The notes: a model not told the origin generated them from the letters alone. 64,000 bases of DNA from Rhodovibrionaceae bacterium (GCA_028282405.1 JANQIA010000001.1:5672-69671); one strand, 5' to 3'. Shown: positions 105 through 38,196, numbered from the stretch's first letter. Numbers and translations are program-made.

Positions 105-1349
105 ATGACCATGAATAGACGAGATTTAATGAAAACTGCGGCCGCAAGCTCAGCGCTTTTGGCTGCGCCGGGAATCATCGGCCGCGCTTATGCATCGGAT
201 ACGATCAGGGTAGGCGCCCTCTATTCTCAAACCGGTGGCTTGTCGGTGGTGGAGAAATTGCTCTCTAGTGCCGTTCAGTTGGCGGTCGACGAGATCAACG
301 CCGATGGGGGTGTGTTGGGTCAACAGGTCGAGGTCGTCGTAGAAGACGGCGCATCGGATCCAAAGACCTTCAACGAGAAAGCGTCGAAGTTGATCCTGCG
401 CGACAGGATCTCGAACATCTTCGGTTGCCACACGTCTGCGAGCCGGAAGGCGGTTCTACCGATCTTCGAGCGCCGCAACGCGATGTTGTACTATCAGACT
501 CATTATGAGGGTTTTGAGTGCTCCCGAAACGTCCTCTACACGGGCGCGGTTCCCAACCAGCAACTGGGCAATTTGATCCCCTGGTTGGTCAATACCCACG
601 GCAGGAAGAAGATCTTCATCGTTGGGTCGAACTACGTCTATCCCAAAGAGATGGCCAAGGTGACAAAGAAGCTTTTGGCCGACAACGGCGCGGAATGGAT
701 CGCGGACGAGTATCTGGAGCTGGGCCATTCCGAATGGGCATCCATGGTCAAGAAGATCAAAGACTCGGGCTGTGATGCCGTGGTGTCGAATGTGGTCGGC
801 GATTCAATCATCGCCTTCTATCGCGAGTTCAAGAACCAGGGTATCTCGCAAGAGGACATTCCAATCTGCGCCACGGTGACGGGTGAGATCGAAATTCAGG
901 CAATGGGCGCGGAGTTTGCCGCAGGCAGCTTCACGTCCGTTCCCTATTTCCAATCGATCGACACCGATGCGAACCGCGCATTCGTCGAGAGCTTCCGCAA
1001 GAAAGTGAATGATCCGAAAGTGGTGACCTATCACTCCCTGGAAGCCGCTTACTTCCAGGTGTTCATCTGGAAACAGGCCGTTGAGGCAGCCGGCACCCTG
1101 GACATCGATGCTGTTCGGGAAAAGCTCGGCGGACAGAGCTATGACGCACCGGGCGGCACCGTCACGATCGATGGCGACAATCTGCACGCGGCGCTGACGC
1201 CCCGCATCGGTGAGTGGCAGGAAGACGGGCAAAGCAAGATCATCGTGGCGTCCGACGGCAACATCAAACCGCTGCCCTATTCCGCGTATGGTGAGACGGC
1301 GGACAACCTGTTCTGCACCTCCCAAGGGCTGCTGAGAGACAAGCTCTAA
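105..1349 (+). CDS. ABC transporter periplasmic substrate-binding protein, urea/short-chain-amide type (UrtA/FmdD/AmiC-like)
   Basis: 414-aa ORF with GGGAGG RBS upstream. Tat-like signal: RRDLMKTAAASSALLAAPG...AYA. Family-typical blocks: GGVLGQQVEVVVEDGASDP, FGCHTSASRKAVLPIFE, YEGFE, PNQQ. First gene of a five-gene ABC operon. Confidence 0.85.
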   Translation: MTMNRRDLMKTAAASSALLAAPGIIGRAYASDTIRVGALYSQTGGLSVVEKLLSSAVQLAVDEINADGGVLGQQVEVVVEDGASDPKTFNEKASKLILRDRISNIFGCHTSASRKAVLPIFERRNAMLYYQTHYEGFECSRNVLYTGAVPNQQLGNLIPWLVNTHGRKKIFIVGSNYVYPKEMAKVTKKLLADNGAEWIADEYLELGHSEWASMVKKIKDSGCDAVVSNVVGDSIIAFYREFKNQGISQEDIPICATVTGEIEIQAMGAEFAAGSFTSVPYFQSIDTDANRAFVESFRKKVNDPKVVTYHSLEAAYFQVFIWKQAVEAAGTLDIDAVREKLGGQSYDAPGGTVTIDGDNLHAALTPRIGEWQEDGQSKIIVASDGNIKPLPYSAYGETADNLFCTSQGLLRDKL

Positions 1350-1431
1350 GCTTGCGCCAAACCAGAGGGCGGCGTCGCGGTTCACGTTCGGATCGTGGCG
1401 CCGCTCTCTGGCGGCAGTCGGGGAGCAGTCA

Positions 1432-2325
1432 ATGGCGGAAGTTTTGTTCATAGGCCTGAGCCTGAGCTCGATCTTGCTGCTGATCGCGCTCGGGCTGGCG
1501 ATTACCTATGGCGCCATGGGCGTCATAAACATGGCCCACGGCGATATGGTCATGATCGGGGCCTACGTCACGGTCATGTCGAAGATCTGGCTCGATCTGA
1601 GTTTCTTTGCTGCAATCCCCATCGCTTTCTTTGTCACGGCCTTGATCGGTCTGGTCATCGAACGCCTGGTTGTCAGGCGCTTGTACGGCCGTCTTCTCGA
1701 TACGCTCCTTGCCACCTGGGGAATCTCGATACTGCTCCAGCAGTCCATTCGTCTGGAGTTCGGTCTGTCCTTCTTCGGCATCAACATCGAGGGCTTGGGC
1801 CCCGGCCTGCAAAACGTCTCGGTCCCGTCCGTGCTGCAGGGAACCGTTCACGTGGCGGGGACGGATTTGAACGCTTATCGCGTCTTCATCATCGCCGTAA
1901 CCGCGGTCCTCACTCTCGTCACATGGGCGATACTCTACCGAACGTCGTTTGGGGTTCAGGTGCGAGCCATCATTCGCAATCCTCAAATGGCAGCGGCCTG
2001 CGGGATCGACGTCAAACGAGTCAACGCGCTGACCTTCGCATTCGGCTCCGGACTTGCCGGTGTGGCGGGCGTCATGATGTCCGGGTTCAAGACGGTGTTC
2101 CCGGACATGGGGAGCACCTTGGTTGTCGACGGGTTCCTCGTCGTGGTTGCAGGTGGGGTTGGCAGCATCTACGGCACGATTCTGGCGTCGGGTCTTCTTG
2201 GCGAGATCAACGCGCTCGTGGCGCTGTTCAGCAATGACATCATTGCCCGTGCCGTCGTGTTCGCCGTGGTCATTGCAGTGATCGTTCTCAAGCCCAAAGG
2301 GCTCTTCTCCTTCAAAGGGCGCTGA
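1432..2325 (+). CDS. ABC transporter permease (UrtB/LivH family)
   Basis: 297-aa polytopic hydrophobic ORF with LivH-like N-terminus (LSLSSILLLIALGLAITYGAMGVINMAHGD). Operon position is after the binding protein. Confidence 0.85.
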   Translation: MAEVLFIGLSLSSILLLIALGLAITYGAMGVINMAHGDMVMIGAYVTVMSKIWLDLSFFAAIPIAFFVTALIGLVIERLVVRRLYGRLLDTLLATWGISILLQQSIRLEFGLSFFGINIEGLGPGLQNVSVPSVLQGTVHVAGTDLNAYRVFIIAVTAVLTLVTWAILYRTSFGVQVRAIIRNPQMAAACGIDVKRVNALTFAFGSGLAGVAGVMMSGFKTVFPDMGSTLVVDGFLVVVAGGVGSIYGTILASGLLGEINALVALFSNDIIARAVVFAVVIAVIVLKPKGLFSFKGR

Positions 2326-2326
2326 G

Positions 2327-3484
2327 ATGGATTTGAAAAGAAAACTGCAGCTCGCCGCCTATGCTCTGTTCATTCTGTCGCTGTTTGCCGTTCCCCTGTT
2401 CACGGACGATTTCGGGCTCAATCGCGCATCCAAGTATTTGGTCTATGGGATGCTTGGGCTCTCCATTGCTTTGACCTGGGGCTATGCGGGCGTGCTGAAT
2501 TTGGGGCAGGGGCTCTTCTTCGGACTCGGCGCCTACATGATGGCGATGTCCTTGAAGCTGATGAGCCCGACGAGCCTTGCGCAGGGTTCGGACAAACCAA
2601 TCCCCGACTTCATGCTTTGGAACGCGGAACCCGATGCGCCTATCGAGCTCTGCTGCATCACGCCCGGCTCCTATCTTTGGATACCTTTTCAGGACCAATG
2701 GTTCGGTGTGGCGATGGGGATAGTGGTTCCTGTCGTGGTGGCGGGACTGCTTGGCGCGCTCGTATTCAAGAACCGCATCTCCGGCGTTTTCGTATCGATC
2801 ATCACCTTGGCCCTCGTTCTTCTCGTCCGCCTGATCGTGATCGATGCCCAGCCTGTGACGAATGGGTTCAACGGGCTAACCGACCTGGGCTTCTTCACCG
2901 TCTTTGGCTACGAGTTCGACCCCTATAGTCGGGAGATGTACTATCTTGTCGCGGTTTCGCTGGCGTTCGTGTTGGTCGCGGGACGATTGCTGGCGGACAC
3001 CCGCGCAAGCCTGATTCTTCAAGCCATTCGCGATGATCAGCAACGCGCCCGTCATCTCGGGTTCGATGTTCCTCTGTATCAGACGTTTTTCTTTGTCGTG
3101 TCCGCAGCGATTGCAGGCTATGCGGGCATGCTGTTCGTGCTGGTTTCGGAATTTGCATCCCCAACATTCATGGACCTTTCGTTTTCGGTGACGATGGTCG
3201 TCTGGGCCGCGGTCGGTGGACGGTCTTCGCTGCTGGGCGCGTGTATCGGCGCGATACTCATCAATGTCATCGAATCTCAGGTGAGCGAGACGGAAGCGCT
3301 CGTTGACGCCTGGAAGGCGATCATCGGTCTGATCTTTGTGTTGGTCGTGCTGTTCCTTCCGAGAGGCCTTGGCGGACTTGCCCACGACTTTGTGGATTGG
3401 CTCGCCAGGCGCGATCGGGAGAAAGCCCACGGTCTCGCGGCATCCTCGTCATCTCCCGAACGGGAGGTGAAGCAAGATGTCTGA
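2327..3484 (+). CDS. ABC transporter permease (UrtC/LivM family)
   Basis: 385-aa polytopic ORF starting 2 nt after the previous stop. LivM-like block: GYAGVLNLGQGLFFGLGAY. Confidence 0.85.
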   Translation: MDLKRKLQLAAYALFILSLFAVPLFTDDFGLNRASKYLVYGMLGLSIALTWGYAGVLNLGQGLFFGLGAYMMAMSLKLMSPTSLAQGSDKPIPDFMLWNAEPDAPIELCCITPGSYLWIPFQDQWFGVAMGIVVPVVVAGLLGALVFKNRISGVFVSIITLALVLLVRLIVIDAQPVTNGFNGLTDLGFFTVFGYEFDPYSREMYYLVAVSLAFVLVAGRLLADTRASLILQAIRDDQQRARHLGFDVPLYQTFFFVVSAAIAGYAGMLFVLVSEFASPTFMDLSFSVTMVVWAAVGGRSSLLGACIGAILINVIESQVSETEALVDAWKAIIGLIFVLVVLFLPRGLGGLAHDFVDWLARRDREKAHGLAASSSSPEREVKQDV

Positions 3485-4223
3485 TGCACTGACCCTCGAC
3501 AGGCTGACCGTGAAATTCGGCGCGTTTGTCGCCGTGGACGACGTGACGATGTCAATCGCCGACGGCGAGCTGCGCGTTCTGCTTGGCGCGAATGGGGCCG
3601 GCAAGACGACGTTGATGGACATGATATCCGGCCGCGTCCCTTGTACCCAGGGACACGTTCGGGTCTTCGGCCGCGACATCACAAACTGGCAAGAGCACAA
3701 GATCGCGGCGGCGGGCGTGGGCCGCAAGTTTCAGATACCGAGCGTCTTTCGTAACCTGACGGTGAAGCAGAACATCGAAGTTGCCCGATGCCATGGCCAA
3801 TCTGTTTTCAAGAACCTTCGTTTCGGAATGTCCCCGAGCGATAGCGATCGGGTTGCAGAGATTGTCGAGCTGATCGGACTAGCGGCGGTTCAGTCCCTAG
3901 TTGCTGCCCATCTTAGCCACGGTCAGACGCAGTGGTTGGAGTTGGGCATCCTGGTCGCGCAAGATCCGAAGGTCGTTTTGCTCGATGAGCCGACAGCGGG
4001 CATGACCCACGATGAGACCTATAAGACAGCCGAGATAATCCGAAGACTACGCGGCAACCATACCTTGTTGGTCATCGAGCACGACATGAGCTTCGTGCGG
4101 GAAATCGCCGAGATCATCACGGTGATGCATCTAGGCAAGGTGATCGCCGAAGGATCGGTTTCGGACATAGAAACGAATGACGAAGTTCGCGCAGCCTATT
4201 TGGGATCGGCGGGAATTTCGTGA
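3477..4223 (+). CDS. ABC transporter ATP-binding protein (UrtD/LivG family)
   Basis: Walker A GANGAGKTT, signature-like LSHGQTQWLELG, Walker B VVLLDEPTAGM. Overlaps neighbours at both ends, which suggests translational coupling. Confidence 0.9.
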   Translation: MSDALTLDRLTVKFGAFVAVDDVTMSIADGELRVLLGANGAGKTTLMDMISGRVPCTQGHVRVFGRDITNWQEHKIAAAGVGRKFQIPSVFRNLTVKQNIEVARCHGQSVFKNLRFGMSPSDSDRVAEIVELIGLAAVQSLVAAHLSHGQTQWLELGILVAQDPKVVLLDEPTAGMTHDETYKTAEIIRRLRGNHTLLVIEHDMSFVREIAEIITVMHLGKVIAEGSVSDIETNDEVRAAYLGSAGIS

Positions 4224-4918
4224 TGCTATCGATCAAGGACCTCAACAGTTTTTTCGGTCGCAGCCATGTTCTGCATGACATCTCGCTGGAGGTCGGCAAG
4301 GGAGACGTAACGTCGATCTTGGGCCGAAACGGGGTCGGCAAAACCACGCTGCTCAAGACGCTGATGGGCCTGTCGGATCGGGTTACGGGTGAGATCAATC
4401 TACAGGGACGCGACATCGCATCGAGCGAGCCTTATGCCAGGGCGCGTTCGGGTATCGCCTACGTGCCTCAGGGCCGAGAGATCATTCCCGATTTCACGGT
4501 TAGAGAGAACATCCTCATGGGAGGATTTGCTCGCGCGAACGGGAAACCCACCATACCGGACATCGTAGTCGAACTTTTCCCCTATCTACGCGACAACCTG
4601 GAACGCTCAGGGGGGCTTCTCTCAGGCGGCCAGCAACAACAACTGGCGATTGCCCGGGCTCTTGCGGCCGACCCTGGACTGCTTCTTCTCGATGAACCGA
4701 ACGAGGGTATTCAGCCGTCGATCGTCGAAGAGATTGAACAGGTGATTTTCAAGCTCAATCGAGACCTAGGGCTGACCGTCATTCTGGTGGAACAGAATGT
4801 GCGCTTTGCTCGGGAGATCTCCCATCGTTTTGCGATGATGGAGAAGGGACGCATCGTTGCAGAGGGACCGACAGCAGAACTGACCGACGATCTCGTGCAC
4901 GAGCATATGACGGTCTGA
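4220..4918 (+). CDS. ABC transporter ATP-binding protein (UrtE/LivF family)
   Basis: Walker A GRNGVGKTT, signature LSGGQQQQLAIARAL, Walker B LLLLDEP. GTGATG stop/start overlap with the previous gene. Confidence 0.9.
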   Translation: MMLSIKDLNSFFGRSHVLHDISLEVGKGDVTSILGRNGVGKTTLLKTLMGLSDRVTGEINLQGRDIASSEPYARARSGIAYVPQGREIIPDFTVRENILMGGFARANGKPTIPDIVVELFPYLRDNLERSGGLLSGGQQQQLAIARALAADPGLLLLDEPNEGIQPSIVEEIEQVIFKLNRDLGLTVILVEQNVRFAREISHRFAMMEKGRIVAEGPTAELTDDLVHEHMTV

Positions 4919-4942
4919 CCCAAAAGGGAGGAGAACATCAGG

Positions 4943-6472
4943 ATGAGCGAAACACCGGACTTGGGAACTCTGAGCGTCAGGGAGGTCCGTGACGGGCTTT
5001 CAAACGGTCGTTTCACTGCCGAGGCTTTGACTTTGGCGGCCCTCGCTCAGGTCGAGGCCATGAATCCGAAGTACAACGCGATCATCTTTGCAAACGAGGC
5101 GGCGCTGGAGACAGCGCGGGATGTCGACAGACGCATTGCCGACGGCGAGCCCGTCGGTCCCTTGGCCGGTGTGCCGGTGGTGATCAAAGATCCGATGGAC
5201 ATGAAGGGGTTCCCGACGACCGCCGGGTGGAGAAGGCTCTATTCCGAAGCCGGCGGTGTTGACTTGATGCCGGAACGCGACAGCCCGGTTGTCGCGCGGA
5301 TGCGAGCCGCCGATGCGATCATCCTCGGGAAGACCAATGTTCCGATTCTCAGTTGGACGGGCACTCATGCCAACGACAGTTGGGCAGGCCCGACGAAGAA
5401 TCCCGCTCACACCGAGCGGGTTCCGGGTGGCTCGAGCGCCGGGACGGCGGCCGCGGTCGCGAGCCATATGGCAGTCCTGGGATTGGCGGAGGAAACCGGC
5501 GGGTCGATCCAGAACCCGGCCTCCGCGCAGGGGCTGGTCGGAATCAAACCGACGATTGGGCTTGTCCCAAACGCCGGGGTGGTTCCCTTGTCGGGAAACC
5601 GGGATGTGGTCGGTCCCATTGCCCGCACCGTGGAAGACGCGGCTCATGGTCTTGATGTCCTGGCGGGGTTCACAAGCGAGGATCCCAAGACGCTGGCCTG
5701 CGTCGACAAGATCCCCCGAGAGGGATATGCCGCAAACTTGTCGAGGGATGGTTTGAAGGGAAAGCGGCTGGGTCTCTACGGCCCAGGGTGGCGGCCATAC
5801 GAGCTATCGCCGGAGACCGTCGAGCACTACGAACGAGCGAAAGGCGAGTTGGTCGAGGCCGGCGCTGAGCTCATCGAGGATCCGTTCAGCGGGACCGATT
5901 TTGCGAGCTATCGTCAAGTCACACCCGGGACGCCCTTTTTCGACGGCCGGGGACTTGAGTCCATCGCCTACGACATGACGTGTTATCTGAGGCGACTGGG
6001 TGACAATGCCGCGATCAAAACCTGGGATGAGTTCGCTGCCGCCACCCAGATCGAAGAGGTTACCGGCAAGGGCGGTATCCTTGGGTATCTCTATGAGCTG
6101 CCGGACTTTGTCGAGGCCATCAAGGTGCCGAGCCAGCCGCCTGAGATGCCACAGTTCATCGAACTCAAGCGCCGCTATCTAGAGCTGCTCGCGGAGGTCT
6201 TTGCACGACACGAATTGGACGGCCTGGTGTATCCGCAGATGATCGAAGAACTGCCGGAGTTGCATTCCGGTGACGCCATTCGGGAAACGACGGTTGGCGA
6301 ACTCAACATCGCAGGTCTGCCTGGGGTTACGGTTCCGGCTGGATACTATCGGTCCGGCGCACCCTTTGAACTGATATTCCTGGGGCAGCAGTGGACAGAG
6401 TCCGCGCTCATTCAACAGGCCTACGCCTATGAACAGGCAACACTACATCGCCGGCCGGCGGACTTGATGTAA
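4943..6472 (+). CDS. amidase (amidase-signature family)
   Basis: 509-aa ORF. AS-family motifs: KDPMDMKGFPTTAG and VPGGSSAGTAAAVA (GGSS core). Immediately downstream of the amide/urea-type importer. Confidence 0.85.
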   Translation: MSETPDLGTLSVREVRDGLSNGRFTAEALTLAALAQVEAMNPKYNAIIFANEAALETARDVDRRIADGEPVGPLAGVPVVIKDPMDMKGFPTTAGWRRLYSEAGGVDLMPERDSPVVARMRAADAIILGKTNVPILSWTGTHANDSWAGPTKNPAHTERVPGGSSAGTAAAVASHMAVLGLAEETGGSIQNPASAQGLVGIKPTIGLVPNAGVVPLSGNRDVVGPIARTVEDAAHGLDVLAGFTSEDPKTLACVDKIPREGYAANLSRDGLKGKRLGLYGPGWRPYELSPETVEHYERAKGELVEAGAELIEDPFSGTDFASYRQVTPGTPFFDGRGLESIAYDMTCYLRRLGDNAAIKTWDEFAAATQIEEVTGKGGILGYLYELPDFVEAIKVPSQPPEMPQFIELKRRYLELLAEVFARHELDGLVYPQMIEELPELHSGDAIRETTVGELNIAGLPGVTVPAGYYRSGAPFELIFLGQQWTESALIQQAYAYEQATLHRRPADLM

Positions 6473-6842
6473 CAGGATATTCCGGCGGACCCGTTTGAAC
6501 CTGATTTCGCTTTCTCGGCTTGCCGGGTCCCTCCGCAGGAGGGCCGTGCCTAAGCCAAGCCTTCAGGTTATGAGCTGCTATGTCCGAATGGCGACTTTTG
6601 GATCCACAGGCAGACCCTTCTGGCAGCTCTAAGAAATGGTCGCTTCTGGCCGAATTCAGCCACTTAGTGATCTCATGGCTCAGCTTGGGCCATCATGCTA
6701 CTGCTTGGAAGAGGTTCTGCTGCTCACGGCGGTTGCGCGCCCCCGCAACCAAATTAGTCTGCTGAACAGACGGGCCGCTCTAGTCGAACGGCTTTTCTTT
6801 GTTTGCGGCCAGGCCCAGAATACCAGCGAGAGGCAGTGTCAG

Positions 6843-7245
6843 ACTAATCTTGTTCAAAGGCGATCATTGGCATCCGGCGATGTGGCATCCCTTCCATTAC
6901 TTCAACGAGTCGTCTGATACTATCCGCCTAACGATGATAATTTAGATCCGATATCTGCTGTCGCTGCATCAGGTCTAGGATCTGCTGTTCGAACGTGGCA
7001 TCGATGTTTGTCATGAGACGGTGTGGATCTGGTGAAACCAGTTTTCATTGGTCTGACAGCACCTTAGGCAGTAGATAGTCAAGCTTGTCTTTATACCATA
7101 GCGACTAAGGCGGGAATGCCACGCTTGACTGCTGCGGACTTCGGGACGCATCCTGAAACGCTGCCAACGCGTTAGCTGTCCGTAGGCTGGCAACACGGTG
7201 CGAAGCCTTCAGCCCCGATCTTTTGCCTGTGATAAGTAGATTGCT
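6843..7245 (-). pseudogene. decayed ORF remnant with in-frame stops, family unassigned (possibly mobile-element derived)
   Basis: One minus-strand frame reads LLITGKRSGLKASHRVASLRTANALAAFQDASRSPQQSSVAFPP*SLWYKDKLDYLLPKVLSDQ*KLVSPDPHRLMTNIDATFEQQILDLMQRQQISDLNYHR*ADSIRRLVEVMEGMPHRRMPMIAFEQD*. That is about 130 codons interrupted by 3 stops. It lies in the low-GC island and I could not name the family from memory. Confidence 0.3.
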
Positions 7246-7265
7246 GTCAATGCCGTTCTCTGCTG

Positions 7266-7293
7266 TTGACTAAAACCGAAGGTTGTATAAACT
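7266..7293 (+). promoter_or_regulatory. putative sigma70-type promoter for the 725-aa ATPase gene
   Basis: TTGACT (7266-7271), 16-nt spacer, TAAACT (7288-7293), about 55 nt upstream of the TTG start. Pattern match only. Confidence 0.3.
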
Positions 7294-7349
7294 TAAGCCA
7301 ACAACAATGCGGCTGAGAAAGAGATCTCAATTCAAGGGGAAACTCGCAA

Positions 7350-9527
7350 TTGACGCTTCCTGTGAATTTCTTCAACCACGATGCCCAAGCAGGAGGTTTC
7401 TACCCTCAAGCTCACGTTGGGTTTGATGTTGTAGGCATTGGCAATCGACAAAATACTCTTATTGAAGGCATACGCGGAACAGGGAAAACTCATATTCTGA
7501 AGATGATACAACGGTACCATCTGGAGAACTTCAAAAAGACGCGCGTCCTTCCAGCTTATGTATCCTTGGCCCAGTTGAGCGAATATGTGAAGCGCGATCC
7601 AGATGAGTTTCGAGTTCAATTGTATGCGCGCATTGTTGACGCTTGCATCGAAACACTTGAGGCGAATAGTGATTTTCGAGACAGGGACCAAGGCGTGCTT
7701 TTGGAAGCGGTCAGGGGGATGAAACGCGCGCTTGGTCTTGAAGCGACCCCTACGTTTGAGGATTTCACAAAAGAAATAATTCAAATACGCGCCTGTGCCG
7801 AAGAATTGCTATTTCAATTGAGTTATGACCTAACCGCCAAGAATCTGAAGCAGGTCTCCAGTGCCACTTTAAAAGAAAAAAAGGGAATCTCTTTTCTTGC
7901 GAGAGCTTCAAGTTTATTATTTTCAGGAAGTTTGTCTAGAGCCAAGGAAAGTGAATTTCAAGAATCGGGAATAAACGAAGGTACGGTGCAGATGTTGGGT
8001 TCGCGCTTGGTTCACAACAATGCTGCAGAATTCATTATTAGATTTCTTCAGGAAATACAAAAAATTCTCGATCTTGATTATACTTTGATTCTATTGGATG
8101 AGTGTTCAGAGGCAAGTGCCGATGCGCAAATAGAGATATTTCGTTTTTTTAAGGCACTGCGCGGCTGTACATCCACAGTGGCAGAGAAAGATGAGTGCGC
8201 TTTTTTTGTAGGCACTGTCTACCCAAGGGGTGAAACCAACTATCCAGATCGAGATACTTATGGGTTCAGCTTTGAACCGGGGCAAGACTGCACGGTCGAA
8301 TTCATCCAATGGGACGAAACTGACGTTGAATCTTATCTCGAGTTCTTCGAGAAAATGCTAATCAATCGCGCGCATGCGATATTGGGTTATGAGGGTGATG
8401 TTCACGCTTTTGTGCGCGAGTACTTCGACAGTGATAGCACCTTTCGGCTTGCAATTTTCTGCGCTAACGGAATTCCCAGGCGGTTTTGGGAAATTGTCAG
8501 GCGAGCATATGACGGTGGCACAAACAAGATCAGCAAGAACCGTCTTAAGATTGCTACACAAGAGGTTGTTAGCGAGCAGATTTTAAATCATCATTATCTT
8601 TCCGACGAAGATCAGTCAGTAGTTCAGTACATTGTTAAGATTATTACCCAAAGAAATGAAGAGTCCAGAGTAAAAAACAAAGAAAGCGGCCGTCAAATAT
8701 TACCACAAGGTGTGTATTTCAGCATATTGCCAAGAAATTCTGTCAAGTTGTCGAAGCTTATCATGCAAGGTGCCGTGCATGATAAGTCGAGGATGAAGGC
8801 TAGAAAGCATAGCCTCAGACCTCATCCCGTGTATGCGCTTGACGTTTCGCTAGCTTACGCATTCCGAGCAATACCTGAACGTGAGTTTGAGAAAGTAGCC
8901 GCTAGAGATTTTCCACGCGCCCCATCAAACGGATTCGCAAATGCAGCGTCATTTGAGCCGCCCAAATCGAAAAAGCAAGGCCAGAGCTGGCGAAAATCTC
9001 CAAACTTCGCCACTGTTGAATTGCCTAGGGCAGCTCCCGAAACCACTCTAGAAATGGATGAAACCAAAGAAGAACTCATTGGCTACATAAGCCAGATTCG
9101 AAAGAACGGCAGTGGAGCCGCTTTTGTAAATGATGGCGGGCCGTTTGGTTACATCCCGAAACATCTTTTAACCGCTCTTCTTGAGCAAGGGGCTGAGGAA
9201 GGAACCCCGGTGAGATTGACTCTTCGTACAAACCCAAAAGGTAGAGAGGCTACGAGTATTAAGGTTTTTGATGAACTCACGGCTAGCCTCACGCAAACTC
9301 GACGCGAAGAGATTGTGAAAATTATCGATGATCTTTTGGATGAGTCTGATCCTGTAATGCTGACAAAGCTCGCGGCACGACTTAGGAGTCACTTTGGTGA
9401 TGTGGTAACCGGTACCGTTTGGTTTGGATATGGAAGAATGTCCCGATTGCTTGTTGAACTGGATCTGGACAGCGTGAAAATGGACACCACCACGGCAAAT
9501 GCTTTTCTTACGAAGAAAAACCAATAA
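7350..9527 (+). CDS. ORC/Cdc6-like P-loop (AAA+) ATPase with C-terminal cold-shock-like OB and OST-HTH/LOTUS-like domains; function unknown
   Basis: 725-aa ORF with TTG start preceded by AAGGGGA.
- Walker A: GIRGTGKT (res 40-47).
- Walker B: LILLDE (res 246-251).
- Lid/sensor-2-like: ANGIPRRFWEIVRRAY (res 372-387), followed by a winged-helix-like stretch.
- CSD-like: IGYISQIRKNGSGAAFVNDGGPFGYIPKHLL...EEGTPVRLTLRTNPKGREATSIKV (res ~577-640).
- OST-HTH-like: VMLTKLAARLRSHFGDVVTGTVWFGYGRMSRLLVELD (res ~669-705).
GC is about 35-40% on hand-counted lines, versus ~65% in the flanks. Confidence 0.8.
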   Translation: MTLPVNFFNHDAQAGGFYPQAHVGFDVVGIGNRQNTLIEGIRGTGKTHILKMIQRYHLENFKKTRVLPAYVSLAQLSEYVKRDPDEFRVQLYARIVDACIETLEANSDFRDRDQGVLLEAVRGMKRALGLEATPTFEDFTKEIIQIRACAEELLFQLSYDLTAKNLKQVSSATLKEKKGISFLARASSLLFSGSLSRAKESEFQESGINEGTVQMLGSRLVHNNAAEFIIRFLQEIQKILDLDYTLILLDECSEASADAQIEIFRFFKALRGCTSTVAEKDECAFFVGTVYPRGETNYPDRDTYGFSFEPGQDCTVEFIQWDETDVESYLEFFEKMLINRAHAILGYEGDVHAFVREYFDSDSTFRLAIFCANGIPRRFWEIVRRAYDGGTNKISKNRLKIATQEVVSEQILNHHYLSDEDQSVVQYIVKIITQRNEESRVKNKESGRQILPQGVYFSILPRNSVKLSKLIMQGAVHDKSRMKARKHSLRPHPVYALDVSLAYAFRAIPEREFEKVAARDFPRAPSNGFANAASFEPPKSKKQGQSWRKSPNFATVELPRAAPETTLEMDETKEELIGYISQIRKNGSGAAFVNDGGPFGYIPKHLLTALLEQGAEEGTPVRLTLRTNPKGREATSIKVFDELTASLTQTRREEIVKIIDDLLDESDPVMLTKLAARLRSHFGDVVTGTVWFGYGRMSRLLVELDLDSVKMDTTTANAFLTKKNQ

Positions 9528-9694
9528 TCCCCTTTTTGAAAAACACTAACTAAGCGCAGTTAGCTGCCATAAAGGCGTGTGCATTGACGGTCGGCTCTGT
9601 CCGTATTCCTGTCGACTTACCTCGCCAAAGCGAGTGCTTACTTCGGGTCAGATCGGTCCTGACAGTCTGCTGATACGAGTGTCCTTTACACATA

Positions 9695-9929
9695 CGTGAA
9701 GATGCGGAGTACCCGCGGTCAGACGGAAAGACCCCGTGCACCTTTACTACAGCTTTGCAGTGACGCTAGGGCCGCCATGTGTAGGATAGGCGGGAGGCTT
9801 TGAAGCAGTGCCGCCAGGTACTGTGGAGCCAACCTTGAAATACCGCCCTTGGCTGTCTTAGCGCCTAACCGCGACGTAACCGCGTTCGGGACCCTGCATG
9901 GTGGGTAGTTTGACTGGGGCGGTCGCCTC
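9695..9929 (+). rRNA. partial 23S rRNA fragment (domain V segment only; non-functional, displaced)
   Basis: The sequence reads CGTGAAGATGCGGAGTACCCGCGGTCAGACGGAAAGACCCCGTGCACCTTTACTACAGC ... GTGTAGGATAGGCGGGAGGCTTTGAAG ... GGAGCCAACCTTGAAATACCGCCCTT ... GGTGGGTAGTTTGACTGGGGCGGTCGCCTC. These are universally conserved 23S blocks, running from the A2058-region strand to the P-loop strand (E. coli numbering from memory). No recognisable 23S sequence lies on either side. Confidence 0.8.
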
Positions 9930-10711
9930 TTTCAGCGTCCGGTTCATCCGCTCCACCTGGCCATTTGTCCAAGGGAGATTGGGCTTTGTAAGCCGGTGCT
10001 CGATGTCGTTCTGGGCATGGGCGTACTCGAAGGCATGCGCCCAGACCGGTTTCCGCTTGTCGAGGGCCTCCCGGTCAGTGGCGCTGCGGAAGCGGCATTG
10101 CCCGGCGTGGTGAACTGGGTACCGTTGTCGGTGAGCACCGTGTGGATCTTGTAAGGAACAGCCTCAATGAGGTGGTGCAGGAAGTTGCCAGCAACGCGCC
10201 GGGTGGCGTGCTCGTACAGTTTCGCAAAGGCAAACTTCGATGCACGGTCAATGGCTACGAACATGTGTAATTTGCCTTCGGCCGTGCGGACGTCGGCGAT
10301 GTCGATATGAAAGTAGCCGACCGGATAGACCTTGAACCTCTTCTTCGGCTTGTCACCATCGACCTGCGGTAGGCGCGAGATGCCATGACGCTGGAACAGT
10401 CGGTGCAGCGAGGAGCGCGTCAGATGGGGCACCGTCGCCTGCAGCGCGTAGAGACAGTCATCCAGTGGCAGCAAGGTGTGTTTGCGAAATGCGATGCAAA
10501 GCGCTTCTTCGGCCGTGCTCAAGACTGTGGAGCGAACATCCTTCGGCCCCATCGGCAGATCCTCCACCGAGGAACGGTTGCGCCACTTCATCACCGTCTT
10601 CGGGTTCACCCCGTATTGGGCGCTGAGCTCCGCGATCGTAGCTTTCGATCGCTGTAGTGCAGCTCTGACGGCGTGAGTGGTCGTGGCGCTGCCGTGTAAT
10701 ATCTGTCCCAT
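9930..10711 (-). pseudogene. IS481-family transposase, frameshifted and C-terminally truncated
   Basis: N-terminus: MGQILHGSATTTHAVRAALQRSKATIAELSAQYGVNPKTVMKWRNR (HTH). DDE core runs through ...VLTDNGTQFT. After about 10075-10085 the conserved continuation GEALDKRKPVWAHAFEYAHAQNDIEHRLTKPNLPWTNGQVERMNRTLKEAT is in a different frame from the ORF-track frame. It ends at the junction without the usual C-terminal ~50 residues. Confidence 0.8.
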
Positions 10712-10780: not shown

Positions 10781-11179
10781 TCACGCTAAACGGATGTCGA
10801 CGGTACTGAGCGTCACGACTTCGGCGCCCGGACCGGCGACCGTGAAGTCACAGGTGACCAGGCGGCGGCCGTCGTCTTGCTGTCCGACCGAGGTCACGGC
10901 CCCCTCAATCGTGTAGGCGATGCCAACCGGCGCGACAGCGGTGTTCTTGAACTTGAGCCGGCATACCTCCGCGTCCGGGCCGAAAGCACGGCTGGCGGCT
11001 TCCAGACACCAGTTGCCCATGAGAAATCCGGGCACGATGACGCCGTCGAAGCCTTGCTCTTCGGTAAAGGCCTGATCGAAGTGCAGGCGGTGAAAGTTCC
11101 GGATCGCCGCGCAGAAGAGAACGACCTCGACCTGAGACGGGCACTTCGTCAACGTCGGCAGGCATGTGCCGACTGGCAC
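10781..11179 (-). CDS. MaoC-like (R)-specific enoyl-CoA hydratase/dehydratase, C-terminal-type hotdog subunit
   Basis: Hotdog motif region: EVVLFCAAIRNFHRLHFDQAFTEEQGFDGVIVPGFLMGNW. The ORF track extends to 11305, overlapping the upstream gene. I place the start at GTG 11179 (uncertain; TTG 11236 is also possible). Confidence 0.7.
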   Translation of the reverse strand: MPVGTCLPTLTKCPSQVEVVLFCAAIRNFHRLHFDQAFTEEQGFDGVIVPGFLMGNWCLEAASRAFGPDAEVCRLKFKNTAVAPVGIAYTIEGAVTSVGQQDDGRRLVTCDFTVAGPGAEVVTLSTVDIRLA

Positions 11180-11201
11180 CCTGTCGAGCGATAGCGGCTT
11201 C

Positions 11202-11675
11202 TCAGAACAGTATCTGTTCGTAGCGTTCTCGGACAACGAGCGCGCCCTCCCTATCCCAGTACTCGGTAATCCACTCGGCGACGACGAAGTCGCGACGGCG
11301 CCCACGCTTCTCGTTCAAGGAGGCGAGGGTTCGCACACCGCGCAGCCGGTCGTTCAGGGCCAGGGGACGCAGCCATTCCACCTCGACGCTGCCGCCCATC
11401 GTTTGCCCCGTGCCGATCATCGGCCGGTGCTCCTGCACCGTTCCGTCATCGGCCAGCTCCGAGGCCGGCACCAGCGGCCGGGTCACCGCGTAGTACAGCA
11501 TGGGGGGCACCGGGGTTCCTTCAGACCCCTCCGGGGTCTCGGGCAGCGCATAGCGCGGGTTGTCGTCTCCAGACGCGCTGACGAACCGACGCACCTCGGT
11601 GGCGGAGATCGGGTCGCTCCAGAACTCGATGGAGCGGCCGACCCACGACATGACCTCGGGCGTGAGAAGGCTCAT
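11202..11675 (-). CDS. MaoC_dehydrat_N / FAS1-like dehydratase, N-terminal-type hotdog subunit
   Basis: 157-aa ORF: MSLLTPEVMSWVGRSIEFWSDPISATEVRRFVSASGDDNPRY... This is typical of the N-terminal half of double-hotdog hydratases. 4-nt overlap with the upstream crotonase gene. Confidence 0.7.
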   Translation of the reverse strand: MSLLTPEVMSWVGRSIEFWSDPISATEVRRFVSASGDDNPRYALPETPEGSEGTPVPPMLYYAVTRPLVPASELADDGTVQEHRPMIGTGQTMGGSVEVEWLRPLALNDRLRGVRTLASLNEKRGRRRDFVVAEWITEYWDREGALVVRERYEQILF

Positions 11676-36954: not shown

Positions 36955-38196
36955 ATGCGCATTATCCTGCATATCGGCATGCACAAGACCGGCAGCTCCT
37001 CGCTGCAGGGGGCGCTCAAGGGCTATGACGACGGGACGACCGTCTATGCGACTCTGCGGGCGGTCAATCACTCCATCCCCTTCTTCTCCGCCTTCAGCTC
37101 CGACTACCTGACCTACCGGGTCTTCAAGCGGCAGGGCCTGTCGCCCGCCGAGATCGAGGCGCTACGGGTACGGGATCGCTCGGATATCGAGACGATGCTG
37201 ACGACCACGAAGCGCGAGCGGGTGATCTTCTCCGGCGAGGACATCTCGCTGCTGAGCGATGCGGACAAGCAGGCGATGTTGAGCGCCCTGCAACAGTATG
37301 CGGAGGGCATCCTGGTGGTCGGCTACTTTCGCGACCCGATCGGCTTTGCCCGCAGCGCCCTGCAGCAGGACCTTCAGGGCGGTCTGTCAGGTCCTAAGCT
37401 GGTGCAAAGGCCGAAGTATCGCCGCCGCTTCGAGACCTTCATGCGCGTTTTGGGACCGGACCATGTCGTCCTGCGGCCGTTCCGGCGCGACGCGCTCGCC
37501 GGCGGCGATGTGGTCGACGACTTTGTCGCGACCTGCGACCTCGACCCGGCAAGGGTGGCTCAACAGCGGCAGAACGAAGGCCTCTCGTTGCAGGCGCAGC
37601 AGTGCATCTTCGCCCTCAACCGAAGCAATCCGCTGACCAGCGGCGATGCCGAGACCTTTCGCGCGCGGCAGCGTTTCGTCAGGGTGGTCGATAGCCTGTT
37701 CGACGGGCCGGAGCAGGTGCCGGCGGACTATCTCTCCGACTGTATCGATCTAGAGGATGTGGCCTGGATCGAGTCCGCAACGGGCGTCGACTTCTCGACG
37801 GAACTGGCCGGCATCGCGCCGAAATCCGCACACCTGGCTGACTTCCTGTCGGAGGCCGAACCGGACACGCTCGCGTCGCTCGCCTCGCTCTTGAAGCGAA
37901 ACGCTGTGTCCGGCAGCTACAACGAAAGCTTGGAGGGGCTCGTCAACAGAGTCTACTATCTCTGTCTGTCTCATCACTATAATCCGGCGAGCCGGACCTT
38001 CCTGGACATGCGTGTCACGGGCGCCGATGCGGAGGCCCTGCAAGCCATTGCCCTGAAGCACGAGAGCGGCGAGCCGCTGGACGGGAAAGACGCGCTCTAT
38101 CTCATGGGATTGGCCAGGAAAGGCAATCCCTGGAGCCGGCTTGTGCGCGACAAAATCAAGGCCTGGCGGCAGGGCGGCGGAGAGGGGTCAGGCTAG
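36955..38196 (+). CDS. sulfotransferase-like P-loop protein (hypothetical)
   Basis: 413 aa. 5'-PSB-like loop HIGMHKTGSSSLQ at the N-terminus and 3'-PB-like YFRDPIGFARSALQ. The remainder is unassigned. Confidence 0.45.
   Translation: MRIILHIGMHKTGSSSLQGALKGYDDGTTVYATLRAVNHSIPFFSAFSSDYLTYRVFKRQGLSPAEIEALRVRDRSDIETMLTTTKRERVIFSGEDISLLSDADKQAMLSALQQYAEGILVVGYFRDPIGFARSALQQDLQGGLSGPKLVQRPKYRRRFETFMRVLGPDHVVLRPFRRDALAGGDVVDDFVATCDLDPARVAQQRQNEGLSLQAQQCIFALNRSNPLTSGDAETFRARQRFVRVVDSLFDGPEQVPADYLSDCIDLEDVAWIESATGVDFSTELAGIAPKSAHLADFLSEAEPDTLASLASLLKRNAVSGSYNESLEGLVNRVYYLCLSHHYNPASRTFLDMRVTGADAEALQAIALKHESGEPLDGKDALYLMGLARKGNPWSRLVRDKIKAWRQGGGEGSG

What the first reader, a model, noticed from the sequence alone, without database searches (positions are those of the whole stretch)
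7350..9527. Orphan 725-aa ORC/Cdc6-like ATPase fused to cold-shock-like and OST-HTH/LOTUS-like modules: candidate undescribed single-gene sensor or defence system
**Seen in the sequence**
- One long, clean ORF sits alone in a strongly AT-shifted island.
- Walker A is GIRGTGKT (res 40-47) and Walker B is LILLDE (res 246-251). They are separated by about 200 residues of E/K/L-rich sequence, far more than the 60-80 residues I expect in ORC/Cdc6-type AAA+ cores.
- Next come a lid/sensor-2-like ANGIPRRFWEIVRRAY and a winged-helix-like stretch (res ~415-505).
- A low-complexity linker follows, then an OB/cold-shock-like segment (nt ~9078-9269) and an OST-HTH/LOTUS-like segment (nt ~9297-9479).
- I recognise no nuclease, protease, TIR, Sir2 or transmembrane effector motif.

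**Inference**
- A horizontally acquired NTPase with nucleic-acid (likely RNA) binding modules, next to IS debris, fits the general pattern of STAND/ORC-like antiphage or mobile-element sensors.
- I cannot match this domain combination to any named system.
- A partner or effector gene may have been lost where the rRNA fragment and IS now sit.
Basis: partly seen in the sequence, partly recalled or inferred. Interest (0 to 1): 0.8.

Follow-up and report, generated by a model that had tools for sequence, protein, structure and literature searches.

The report
Orphan ORC-like ATPase with RNA-binding tail
A lone, horizontally acquired gene encodes an ORC/Cdc6-type ATPase ending in a cold-shock-fold domain and a LOTUS-like domain; it belongs to a rare protein family that databases list but nobody has studied, and an anti-invader role is plausible but unproven.

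Summary
Bases 7350-9527 (+) are an intact 725-codon gene in the only AT-rich islet of the window (GC 0.45 against 0.63).

An AlphaFold model (pLDDT 80.8) matches archaeal Orc1/Cdc6 best. The protein is a branch of Pfam PF24389 "ORC-CDC6-like", a family with no papers found on it. The tight family is rare: 48 clusters among 1.84 billion representatives.

- **Architecture:** a constant ~545-residue core, with the C-terminus absent or carrying one or two cold-shock domains (CSD), with or without LOTUS.
- **Context:** the gene is always solo. About 37 loci show no conserved partner, so the "lost effector" idea is not supported.
- **Mobility:** it is AT-shifted in all 23 loci tested, patchy across bacteria and archaea, and sometimes broken. 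No relative was found in the plasmid or phage collections.
- **Defence link:** about a quarter to a third of loci adjoin defence or mobile-element genes; the rest are housekeeping. No PADLOC or NCBIfam defence model matches.

Best reading (~0.4): a stand-alone, ATP-switched nucleic-acid-binding conflict protein. In this copy the cold-shock domain has lost its usual RNA-stacking aromatic residues.

The parts
6950..9700 (.). AT-rich islet carrying the single gene. Boundaries are approximate, read from the GC profile.
   Evidence: GC is 0.45-0.48 here against a window mean of 0.628. No flanking direct repeats or att-like repeats were found.
7266..7293 (+). Promoter-like site (TTGACT, 16 nt spacer, TAAACT) 57 nt upstream of the start codon. 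Weak evidence.
   Evidence: Consensus scan matches 9 of 12 positions. Seven such sites were found in the region against 3.7 expected by chance.
7350..9527 (+). 725-aa ORF with a TTG start: ORC/Cdc6-like AAA+ ATPase, winged helix, CSD, LOTUS-like domain.
7350..7421 (+). Family-specific N-terminal motif FFNHDAQAGGFxPxxHVG (residues 1-24).
   Evidence: F7, F8, H10, D11, A12, Q13, F17, P19, H22 and G24 are at least 90% conserved across 45 sequences. Its role is unknown.
7467..7490 (+). Walker A motif GIRGTGKT (residues 40-47).
   Evidence: G40, R42, G43, T44, G45, K46 and T47 are invariant in the core alignment.
7566..8069 (+). Six-helix insert between strand 2 and Walker B (residues 73-240), with a disordered loop at 172-207.
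   Evidence: From the AF2 secondary structure and pLDDT. It lies at the position of the initiator-specific helical insert of ORC/DnaA-type AAA+ proteins; that placement is an inference.
8085..8102 (+). Walker B motif LILLDE (residues 246-251), followed by invariant C252 and S253.
8220..8288 (+). Conserved insert between strands 4 and 5, YPxxxTxYP...FEPGQD (residues 291-313).
   Evidence: Y291, P292, T296, Y298, P299, F308, G311 and D313 are invariant. Its function is unknown.
8463..8510 (+). Lid helix with ANGIPRRFWEI (residues 372-387), the candidate sensor-2 arginines.
   Evidence: G374, R377 and R378 are invariant. The segment is helical in the model.
8535..8939 (+). Helical plus winged-helix region (residues ~396-530), with the conserved QGAxHDKSR motif and a basic wing.
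   Evidence: From the AF2 model. Foldseek alignments to A. pernix ORC2 and ORC1 span about 534 columns. H477, D478, K479 and D498 are conserved.
8970..9062 (+). Disordered linker (residues 541-571).
   Evidence: pLDDT is below 50.
9063..9272 (+). Cold-shock (OB) fold domain (residues 572-641). The RNP1 aromatic residues are degenerate in this copy.
   Evidence: Foldseek gives TM 0.7-0.78 to CspA and YB-1. Pfam CSD passes its cut-off in homologues. Aligned to CspA, W11 becomes Q, F18 becomes S and F20 becomes A.
9288..9521 (+). LOTUS/OST-HTH-like winged helix (residues 647-724) with the invariant W-x-G motif.

Best explanation
The gene encodes a stand-alone, ATP-switched nucleic-acid-binding protein of the ORC/Cdc6 type. 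It spreads horizontally as a single-gene cassette and most likely acts in genetic conflict, restricting or sensing phages, plasmids or other invading nucleic acids.

**Proposed mechanism**
- The ATP-bound AAA+ core oligomerises. Its enlarged helical insert and the basic wing of the winged helix grip DNA, as Orc1/Cdc6 does.
- The flexible C-terminal cold-shock and LOTUS modules tether single-stranded or G-rich RNA, or ssDNA.
- The assembly therefore forms on a transcription or replication intermediate of the invader and blocks it. Alternatively, it signals to an unlinked host factor. ATP hydrolysis resets the switch.

**Shown here**
- The domain composition and intact ATPase motifs.
- The solo-gene organisation.
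- Recurrent horizontal acquisition.
- The modular C-terminus.

**Inferred**
- Oligomerisation, the ligands, the conflict role and the blocking mechanism.
For: **Fold**
- The AF2 model (pLDDT 80.8) has A. pernix ORC2 and ORC1 as its best PDB matches (probability 1.0, about 534 aligned columns), followed by RFC and the RADAR ATPase RdrA.

**Active-site residues**
- Walker A, Walker B and the lid arginines are invariant across the family.

**Modular C-terminus on a constant core**
- Variants seen are: none, one CSD, two CSDs, CSD plus LOTUS, two CSDs plus LOTUS plus a tail, and two CSDs plus two LOTUS.
- In the wider PF24389 family the C-terminus carries zinc ribbons or the RNA polymerase alpha C-terminal domain.

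**Solo organisation**
- No conserved neighbour appears in 25 genome loci, nor in 10 further annotated contexts.

**Signs of horizontal transfer and turnover**
- The gene has lower GC than its flanks in 23 of 23 loci.
- It is rare and patchy: 48 clusters at E <= 1e-30 among 1.84 billion representatives, spread over Proteobacteria, Campylobacterota, Verrucomicrobiota, Bacillota, CPR, methanogens and DPANN.
- Four loci carry broken or split copies: L021, L023, L025 and L070.

**Defence or mobile-element neighbours**
- AbiK/DRT reverse transcriptase immediately upstream (L016), a type I HsdR (L008), a type IV restriction enzyme (L019), a BrxHI/SngC-like helicase (L006) and a DpdF-like protein (L021).
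- PIN-TPR-GreABC genes, an integrase, ParB and RES (L033). PMC8195603 predicts PIN-TPR-GreA/B-C proteins to be a conflict system.
- A Pycsar-like cyclase with PycTM and a DUF3375 fragment (L032).
- A reverse transcriptase, an integrase and a resolvase (L068).
- A DUF6538 protein (a domain that accompanies Phage_integrase in the L068 protein) plus a weak, sub-cut-off Mob_Pre hit (L035).

**Ligands**
- Cold-shock domains recur in defence proteins predicted to target RNA (PMC11090510).
Against: - No recognisable effector domain is present, and no experimental datum exists for any family member.
- No PADLOC v2 or NCBIfam antiphage model matches beyond the P-loop.
- In the CSD/LOTUS clade most loci lie between ordinary housekeeping genes: L002, L003, L027-L030, L069 and the P0051 contig.
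- The defence-neighbour fraction, about a quarter to a third of loci, is far below what defence-island screens usually require. I could not compute a genome-wide background for comparison.
- No relative was found in 72,556 plasmids, 50,697 phage records or IMG/VR.
- The query's own cold-shock domain lacks the aromatic residues that stack on bases in CspA.
- LOTUS identity rests on family-level HMM hits, not on the query itself.
Confidence: 0.4

Rival explanations
1. It is a cellular regulator or chaperone of RNA or DNA metabolism. One example would be stress or cold adaptation, or handling of structured or G-rich RNA. On this reading it is an accessory gene but is not involved in conflict with invaders.
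For: - CSD and LOTUS are classic RNA-handling modules (PMC7498356).
- Many CSD-clade loci sit among housekeeping genes. Examples are beside pnp in Alteromonas and between ileS and uvrB.
- Several hosts are cold-adapted or marine by name: Colwellia, Methanolobus psychrotolerans and Clostridium gelidum.
- The protein has no toxic effector domain.
Against: - The family is extremely rare and patchy.
- The gene is always AT-shifted relative to its host.
- Four copies are broken or split.
- Some copies sit inside integrative elements or defence islands.
- The core exists without any RNA-binding module in most members.
- None of these features is typical of a physiological regulator.
Confidence: 0.22
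2. It is a maintenance, replication-initiation or transposition-helper ATPase of a mobile element. In the window it would be a stranded remnant next to IS debris.
For: - The ORC/Cdc6 fold with a winged helix is the architecture of archaeal replication initiators.
- Related ATPase clades serve transposons, according to the review text in PMC8195603.
- The window copy abuts a truncated HTH_23 + rve transposase.
- L035, L068 and L033 lie in elements with integrase, resolvase, ParB or relaxase-like genes.
Against: - No transposase, integrase or replication gene is consistently adjacent. Only 2 of 123 neighbouring proteins carry an rve domain.
- Most copies are solo between housekeeping genes.
- No terminal or direct repeats flank the islet, and the flanking DNA is not conserved between loci.
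- No homologue was found in the plasmid, phage or IMG/VR collections.
Confidence: 0.12
3. The core is really a degenerate UvrD/Rep-type superfamily-1 helicase 1A domain with a 1B-like insert, not an AAA+ ORC-like ATPase.
For: - The ~200-residue helical insert between Walker A and Walker B is the UvrD arrangement.
- Pfam UvrD-helicase reaches 29.5 bits (cut-off 23) in the short homologue P0109, over residues 39-258.
- AAA_19 and GajB give weak hits.
- UvrD (PDB) and a phage Rep helicase appear among the fold hits.
Against: - The helicase fold hits have TM of 0.18 or less and rmsd of 24-28 A. ORC2 and ORC1 have probability 1.0 and TM 0.37-0.42 normalised to target length.
- After the core comes a helical lid and a winged helix, not a second RecA-like domain. 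No helicase motifs IV-VI are present.
Confidence: 0.05

Closest known systems
Pfam PF24389 'ORC-CDC6-like' (named by NCBI 'ORC-CDC6 family AAA ATPase'), an uncharacterised prokaryotic family
   Same: - Same constant ~540-residue core.
- Relatives of the query at 40-55% identity pass the Pfam cut-off: P0005 28.8 bits, P0014 37.7 bits and P0038 39.0 bits, against a cut-off of 27.
- The wider family is likewise made of 530-620-aa proteins with small, variable C-terminal nucleic-acid-binding modules.
   Different: - The query itself scores 24.0 bits, below the cut-off, and only over residues 30-61.
- The CSD/LOTUS-bearing branch is a small, divergent clade.
- I found no published function for the family.
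Archaeal Orc1/Cdc6 replication initiators (PDB 1w5s, 1w5t, 2v1u)
   Same: - Best structural matches.
- Same order of AAA+ core, helical lid with arginine motif, and C-terminal winged helix.
   Different: - About 10-12% sequence identity, and no sequence-profile hit to any PDB chain.
- A family-specific N-terminal motif and the CSD/LOTUS tail are present.
- The gene is a rare accessory gene in bacteria, so a role as chromosomal replication initiator is implausible.
RdrA of the RADAR defence system (PDB 8hr8; PMC9994260)
   Same: It is an ORC-like AAA+ ATPase of a defence system and appears among the fold hits (E 5.7e-3, probability 0.98).
   Different: - RdrA works with the RdrB deaminase encoded next to it. 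Here there is no partner gene.
- No PADLOC RdrA hit was obtained.
BrxC/DUF499-type ORC/Cdc6-clade ATPases of BREX and related systems (PMC12839542)
   Same: An ORC/Cdc6-clade AAA+ followed by a wHTH. DUF499 proteins end in variable RNA-recognition-type (RRM) domains, a comparable 'constant ATPase plus variable nucleic-acid module' logic.
   Different: Those proteins are 1200 aa or longer and sit in multi-gene operons with PglZ and methyltransferases. None of that is present here, and no PADLOC BrxC hit was obtained.
Bacterial NYN-LOTUS (MARF1-like) proteins and animal LOTUS proteins (TDRD5/7, Oskar, MARF1)
   Same: They share a LOTUS/OST-HTH module with three helices and two strands. Such modules have been shown to bind G-rich and G4 RNA (PMC7498356).
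   Different: There the LOTUS domain accompanies a NYN RNase or Tudor domains, not an AAA+ ATPase. The query's LOTUS assignment is at family level only.

Membership tests
Pfam PF24389 ORC-CDC6-like | HMM score at or above the gathering cut-off (27 bits). | tested here: inconclusive
   The query scores 24.0 bits over residues 30-61 only. Full-length homologues pass: P0005 28.8 bits, P0014 37.7 bits, P0038 39.0 bits and P0163 59.5 bits. Membership therefore rests on transitive homology.
[quoted passage not shown] | AAA+ core with Walker A and Walker B, plus a helical lid carrying a sensor-2 arginine. | tested here: met
   GIRGTGKT, LILLDE and GIPRR are invariant. The predicted strand and helix order fits an AAA+ core plus lid. 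ORC2 and ORC1 are the top fold hits.
[quoted passage not shown] | C-terminal winged-helix DNA-binding domain. | tested here: met
   The model shows a helix/beta-hairpin region at about residues 396-530 with a basic wing. It falls within the roughly 534-column alignments to Orc proteins.
[quoted passage not shown] | Short helical (initiator-specific) insert after strand 2, and an arginine finger. | tested here: inconclusive
   An insert is present at that position, but it is about 170 residues and six helices long.
[quoted passage not shown] | Origin binding and replication initiation. | not testable with these tools
   Only context is available. The gene is a rare, horizontally moving accessory gene, which argues against a chromosomal initiator role.
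Cold-shock domain (PF00313) | HMM match at or above the cut-off. | tested here: not met
   The query gives no CSD hit at E <= 1. Homologues pass at the aligned position: P0005 29.9 bits, P0014 28.0 bits and P0038 30.0 bits, against a cut-off of 27.
Cold-shock domain (PF00313) | Five-stranded OB barrel of the CspA type. | tested here: met
   The model has strands at 574-583, 589-593, 600-602, 620-628 and 631-639. TM is 0.69-0.78 and rmsd 1.6-3.0 A to the bacterial Csp and YBX1/YB1 chains listed.
Cold-shock domain (PF00313) | RNP1 and RNP2 aromatic residues that stack on bases. | tested here: not met
   Aligned to E. coli CspA (sequence supplied from my own knowledge), W11 becomes Q, F18 becomes S, F20 becomes A and H33 becomes P. 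Only the F31 position is kept, as Y. The sister proteins P0004 and P0005 keep Y or F at these positions.
OST-HTH/LOTUS (PF12872) | HMM match at or above the cut-off (23.8 bits). | tested here: inconclusive
   The query segment gives no hit. 13 of 22 homologous segments hit at E <= 0.1, best 7.2e-6. P0123 carries this domain type followed by a canonical OST-HTH of 42.7 bits.
OST-HTH/LOTUS (PF12872) | Winged helix of three helices plus two strands. | tested here: met
   The model of the segment alone has pLDDT 83.4, helices at segment positions 7-23, 29-43 and 52-62, and strands at 67-70 and 77-80. Marf1 LOTUS (5yad) gives TM 0.63 but ranks only 17th among generic winged helices.
Known anti-phage defence systems (PADLOC-DB v2.0; NCBIfam antiphage models) | Significant match of the whole protein to a system component model. 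| tested here: not met
   Only weak matches were found, mostly over the P-loop region: PDC-S60 at 3.4e-5 over residues 32-78, and mad8, AriA, GajB and DS41_1 at E of 0.006 or higher. The same holds for nine relatives.
STAND NTPases (NLR-like sensors) | NTPase followed by superstructure-forming repeats (TPR, WD40 or LRR) and, usually, an effector domain. | tested here: not met
   No repeats and no effector were found in Pfam or in the model. Only a weak nSTAND3 hit appears, in one relative.
Transposition ATPases (IstB, TniB, MuB type) | Encoded beside its cognate transposase. | tested here: not met
   No conserved neighbour exists. An rve domain appears in 2 of 123 neighbouring proteins. The window's rve ORF is a truncated fragment on the opposite strand.

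The most novel reading that the evidence does not exclude
This is an effector-less, single-polypeptide immune protein. An ORC-like AAA+ switch, guided by cold-shock and LOTUS modules, assembles on invader RNA, ssDNA or transcription/replication intermediates and neutralises them by ATP-dependent clamping or filament formation. It would also be the first prokaryotic case of a LOTUS domain working in genome defence, echoing the transposon-silencing role of LOTUS proteins in animal germlines.
Probability: 0.2. Interest if true: 0.75.

Novelty: new variant of a known kind. Interest (0 to 1): 0.45.

Why it matters
**If it is a defence or conflict protein**
- It would add a mechanistically unusual class: a one-gene system with no nuclease, NADase or pore, built on the replication-initiator fold.
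- Its swappable RNA/ssDNA-binding heads would link LOTUS and cold-shock modules to prokaryotic immunity.

**If it is a physiological RNA or DNA regulator**
- It would still be the first function assigned to Pfam PF24389.

**Why it is tractable**
- The family is small, with a clean constant-core and variable-tail design. That suits biochemistry: ATPase stimulation by defined nucleic acids, and cryo-EM of the oligomers.

**As it stands**
- It is an uncharacterised but already catalogued family, with suggestive, not decisive, context evidence.

Tried and rejected
**Searches for a known relative that found nothing useful**
- Sequence searches against PDB with the single protein and with the core profile gave no meaningful hit. 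The LOTUS profile against PDB found nothing either.
- PADLOC and NCBIfam gave only weak hits on the query and nine relatives, mostly over the P-loop region.
- The viral structure library gave only generic clamp-loader, Rep-helicase and CSD matches.
- Literature searches on ORC-CDC6, GreA/B-C, OST-HTH plus cold shock, and CSD plus anti-phage found no description of this family. The BREX, CoCoNuT and Kaur 2020/2021 papers do not describe it.

**Looking for a partner gene or flanking element**
- All-against-all clustering of neighbouring ORFs in 25 loci found no conserved partner.
- Upstream and downstream DNA is not alignable between loci, so there is no conserved non-coding element.
- Rfam found no shared RNA at seven other loci.
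- No flanking repeats or att sites were found around the islet.

**Other lines that did not work out**
- Plasmid, phage and IMG/VR collections hold no homologue.
- I tried to find an 'empty site' through relatives of the flanking amidase, but synteny is not conserved.
- The UvrD-like helicase classification was considered and rejected, because the fold scores are poor and there is no second RecA-like domain.
- The 23S rRNA fragment was considered as a functional partner and rejected, because it occurs only in this window.
Full report
**1.

Bases 7350-9527 (+) are an uninterrupted 725-codon ORF with a TTG start. An identical 725-aa product is on record as P0001. The start matches homologues, which begin M-x-L-P-x-x-FFNHDAQ.

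The gene sits in the only AT-rich islet of the 64-kb window:
- GC is 0.45-0.48 over 7000-9500, against 0.55-0.69 around it.
- GC is at least 0.594 in every 1-kb bin of 20-64 kb.
- Gene GC is 0.452 and flank GC 0.636.

The surrounding genes are as follows:
- Upstream is an ABC-transporter and amidase operon (105-6472).
- Downstream are a 179-nt 23S rRNA fragment (9746-9924) and a truncated HTH_23/rve transposase ORF on the opposite strand (9944-10711), then housekeeping genes.
- The host is a Rhodobacterales-like alphaproteobacterium. Its amidase is 79% identical to those of Celeribacter and Thioclava.

**2.

GIRGTGKT is residues 40-47, LILLDE is 246-251 and ANGIPRRFWEI begins at 372. K46, T47, D250, E251, G374, R377 and R378 are invariant or nearly so in 45- and 31-sequence alignments.

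An AlphaFold2 model built on the family alignment is good (mean pLDDT 80.8, pTM 0.71). In order, it shows:
- strand 1, the P-loop, helix 1 and strand 2;
- a six-helix insert (residues 73-240) with a disordered loop at 172-207;
- the Walker B strand, strands 4 and 5 with a conserved YPxxxTxYP...FEPGQD insert between them, and a helical lid;
- a winged-helix region (about 396-530) with a basic wing and a conserved QGAxHDKSR motif;
- a disordered linker (541-571);
- a five-stranded barrel (574-639);
- a terminal module of three helices and two strands (649-722).

Foldseek against the PDB puts Aeropyrum pernix ORC2 and ORC1 first (1w5s, 1w5t, 2v1u; probability 1.0, about 534 aligned columns). Clamp-loader subunits and the RADAR ATPase RdrA follow. 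The barrel matches CspA and YB-1 cold-shock domains at TM 0.7-0.78.

Sequence-only searches of the PDB find nothing.

**3. The three domain assignments rest on evidence of different strength.**

- **ORC-like core.** The query scores only 24.0 bits for Pfam PF24389, below the cut-off of 27, and only around the P-loop. Relatives at 40-55% identity pass the cut-off.
- **Cold-shock domain (CSD).** The query gives no Pfam hit. The aligned domain of P0005, P0014 and P0038 passes the cut-off, and the fold is unambiguous. However, aligned to CspA, the query and its closest relative P0002 have lost the base-stacking aromatic residues (W11 to Q, F18 to S, F20 to A). The sister proteins P0004 and P0005 keep them. 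Nucleic-acid binding by this particular copy is therefore uncertain.
- **LOTUS.** The query segment gives no Pfam hit. Of 22 homologous segments, 13 hit OST-HTH, best E 7.2e-6. P0123 carries this domain type followed by a canonical OST-HTH of 42.7 bits. The topology matches the three-helix, two-strand LOTUS description in PMC7498356. By fold alone the domain is a generic winged helix; Marf1 LOTUS ranks 17th with TM 0.63.

It resembles the UvrD/Rep arrangement:
- one short homologue even passes the Pfam UvrD-helicase cut-off;
- helicases appear among the weak fold hits.

Those fold hits have rmsd of 24-28 A, and the protein has a lid plus a winged helix rather than a second RecA-like domain. 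I therefore keep the ORC-like assignment, with an enlarged insert at the initiator-specific position.

**4. The family is small and modular.**

The word-indexed search found 123 clusters. An exhaustive profile search of 1.84 billion representatives found only 48 hits at E <= 1e-30, 76 at E <= 1e-10 and 275 at E <= 1e-3.

The constant part is a ~545-residue core. It occurs alone in Bacillus cereus, Paenibacillus, Lysinibacillus, Clostridium, Methanolobus, Methanosarcina, Methanothrix, Methanoperedens, Parcubacteria and DPANN archaea.

A clade in Proteobacteria, Campylobacterota, Verrucomicrobiota and Rhodothermales adds one of these tails:
- one CSD;
- two CSDs;
- CSD plus LOTUS (the window's 725-aa type);
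- two CSDs, LOTUS and a ~150-residue tail;
- two CSDs and two LOTUS.

More distant PF24389 proteins (530-620 aa) end in zinc ribbons or an RNA polymerase alpha C-terminal domain. No enzymatic effector fusion was seen. One protein (P0130) has an N-terminal extension that looks kinase-like by eye but has no Pfam hit.

**5. The gene is always solo, and its genomic context is mixed.**

Clustering of all neighbouring ORFs in 25 genome loci found no conserved partner. Flanking DNA is not alignable even between the closest loci. No shared RNA element exists, and the rRNA fragment is unique to the window. No repeats bracket the islet. The suggestion that a partner gene was lost at the IS/rRNA site is therefore not supported.

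Signs of horizontal transfer and turnover are consistent:
- The gene has lower GC than its flanks in all 23 loci tested, by 0.02 to 0.29.
- Four loci have broken or split copies: L021, L023, L025 and L070.

Loci with defence or mobile-element neighbours:

| Locus | Neighbouring genes |
|---|---|
| L016 | AbiK/DRT reverse transcriptase immediately upstream |
| L008 | type I HsdR |
| L019 | type IV restriction enzyme |
| L006 | BrxHI/SngC-like helicase |
| L021 | DpdF-like protein |
| L033 | PIN-TPR-GreABC genes, integrase, ParB, RES |
| L032 | Pycsar-like genes and a DUF3375 fragment |
| L068 | reverse transcriptase, integrase, resolvase |
| L035 | DUF6538 protein (domain seen with Phage_integrase in L068) and a weak, sub-cut-off Mob_Pre hit |
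| L070 | HTH and M78 peptidase genes |

The other loci of the CSD/LOTUS clade lie between ordinary housekeeping genes. These are L002, L003, L027-L030, L069 and the P0051 contig.

So roughly 10 of about 37 loci touch defence or mobile genes. By rough reasoning that is above background, but I could not compute a formal defence score. Plasmid, phage and IMG/VR collections contain no homologue.

**6. The gene most likely encodes a stand-alone conflict protein, and three rivals remain.**

Three facts fit a stand-alone, horizontally mobile conflict protein best:
- the ATPase is intact and invariant;
- the nucleic-acid-binding tail is constant in position but variable in content;
- the gene is solo, AT-shifted, rare, patchy and occasionally decayed.

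I propose an ATP-dependent assembly on nucleic acid. The helical insert and the winged helix would hold DNA, as in Orc1/Cdc6. The tethered CSD/LOTUS tail would bind ssRNA, ssDNA or G-rich RNA, as shown for some LOTUS domains in PMC7498356. The assembly would block or flag an invader's transcription or replication intermediate. Only the architecture, motif integrity, solo organisation and mobility are shown here; the rest is inference. Confidence is about 0.4.

The rivals are:
- an accessory RNA or DNA-metabolism regulator (0.22);
- a maintenance or transposition helper of a mobile element (0.12);
- a degenerate SF1-helicase-like protein (0.05).

**7. It is a variant of a catalogued but unstudied family.**

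The closest entries are listed below.

| Entry | Relation to this protein |
|---|---|
| Pfam PF24389 | Family-level membership by transitive homology. Proteins with the same architecture are already deposited as 'ORC-CDC6 family AAA ATPase', 'cold shock domain-containing protein' and 'OST-HTH/LOTUS domain-containing protein'. |
| Archaeal Orc1/Cdc6 | Same fold, not the same role. |
| RdrA | ORC-like defence ATPase, but with a partner gene. |
| BrxC/DUF499 | ORC-like defence ATPases, but inside multi-gene operons. |

No characterised system matches, and I found no paper on the family.

I rate it a new variant of a known kind, of moderate interest. It is a clean candidate for experiment, but it is not uncatalogued, and the defence link is suggestive only.

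Noticed in passing
window 9746-9924 (+), with adjoining sequence from about 9720: A 179-nt fragment of bacterial 23S rRNA (Rfam RF02541, 146.8 bits, model positions 2103-2284). It begins near GACGGAAAGACC and abuts a truncated transposase ORF. No complete rRNA gene is in the window. Seven homologous loci have no such fragment, so it appears incidental, possibly IS-mediated debris.
   Followed up: partly
window 9944-10711 (-): A truncated IS transposase ORF of 255 aa with HTH_23 and a partial rve domain (profile positions 6-79 of 102). It is followed by a 174-aa ORF (10781-11305, minus strand) with no Pfam hit.
   Followed up: partly
window 7350-9527 and 22 other loci (L002-L070): The ATPase gene has lower GC than its flanks in every one of 23 loci, by 0.02 to 0.29. 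This holds in hosts from 30% to 68% GC. The uniformity of the shift is striking.
   Followed up: yes
window 8778-8786 (residues 477-479) and 8469-8483 (residues 374-378): The conserved QGAxHDK[SG]R motif in the winged helix and GIPRR in the lid recall the MHD and GxP motifs of STAND NTPases. If the histidine faces the nucleotide, the family would sit between the ORC/Cdc6 and STAND clades.
   Followed up: no
L033 3188-8942 (Cerasicoccus fimbriatus contig): A homologue lies beside a gene pair with the domains HTH_upst_double_PIN, PIN-TPR-GreABC and Permuted_GreAB-C. PMC8195603 predicts PIN-TPR-GreA/B-C proteins to be a conflict system. An integrase, ParB and a RES toxin domain protein are also in the locus.
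   Followed up: partly
L016 8045-9745 (Cohnella sp. 56): An AbiK-type defence reverse transcriptase (PADLOC E 1.3e-181) is encoded divergently, immediately upstream of a short-form homologue. A 2268-aa ORF lies downstream.
   Followed up: partly
P0130 (782 aa, metagenomic): This family member has a ~265-residue N-terminal extension that resembles the C-lobe of a protein kinase plus a CxxC motif by eye. It has no Pfam hit, and the protein may be truncated at its 5' end.
   Followed up: no
window 39083-39177 (-): ARAGORN calls a tRNA-Ala(cgc) of 95 nt, which is unusually long for a bacterial tRNA-Ala. A tRNA-Leu(caa) is called at 37840-37926.
   Followed up: no
window 6472-7349: About 880 bp between the amidase stop codon and the ATPase start has no convincing gene. 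A 93-aa ORF at 6636-6917 has no Pfam hit. GC falls stepwise from 0.54 to 0.48 across it. The left boundary of the acquired DNA probably lies here but could not be mapped.
   Followed up: partly
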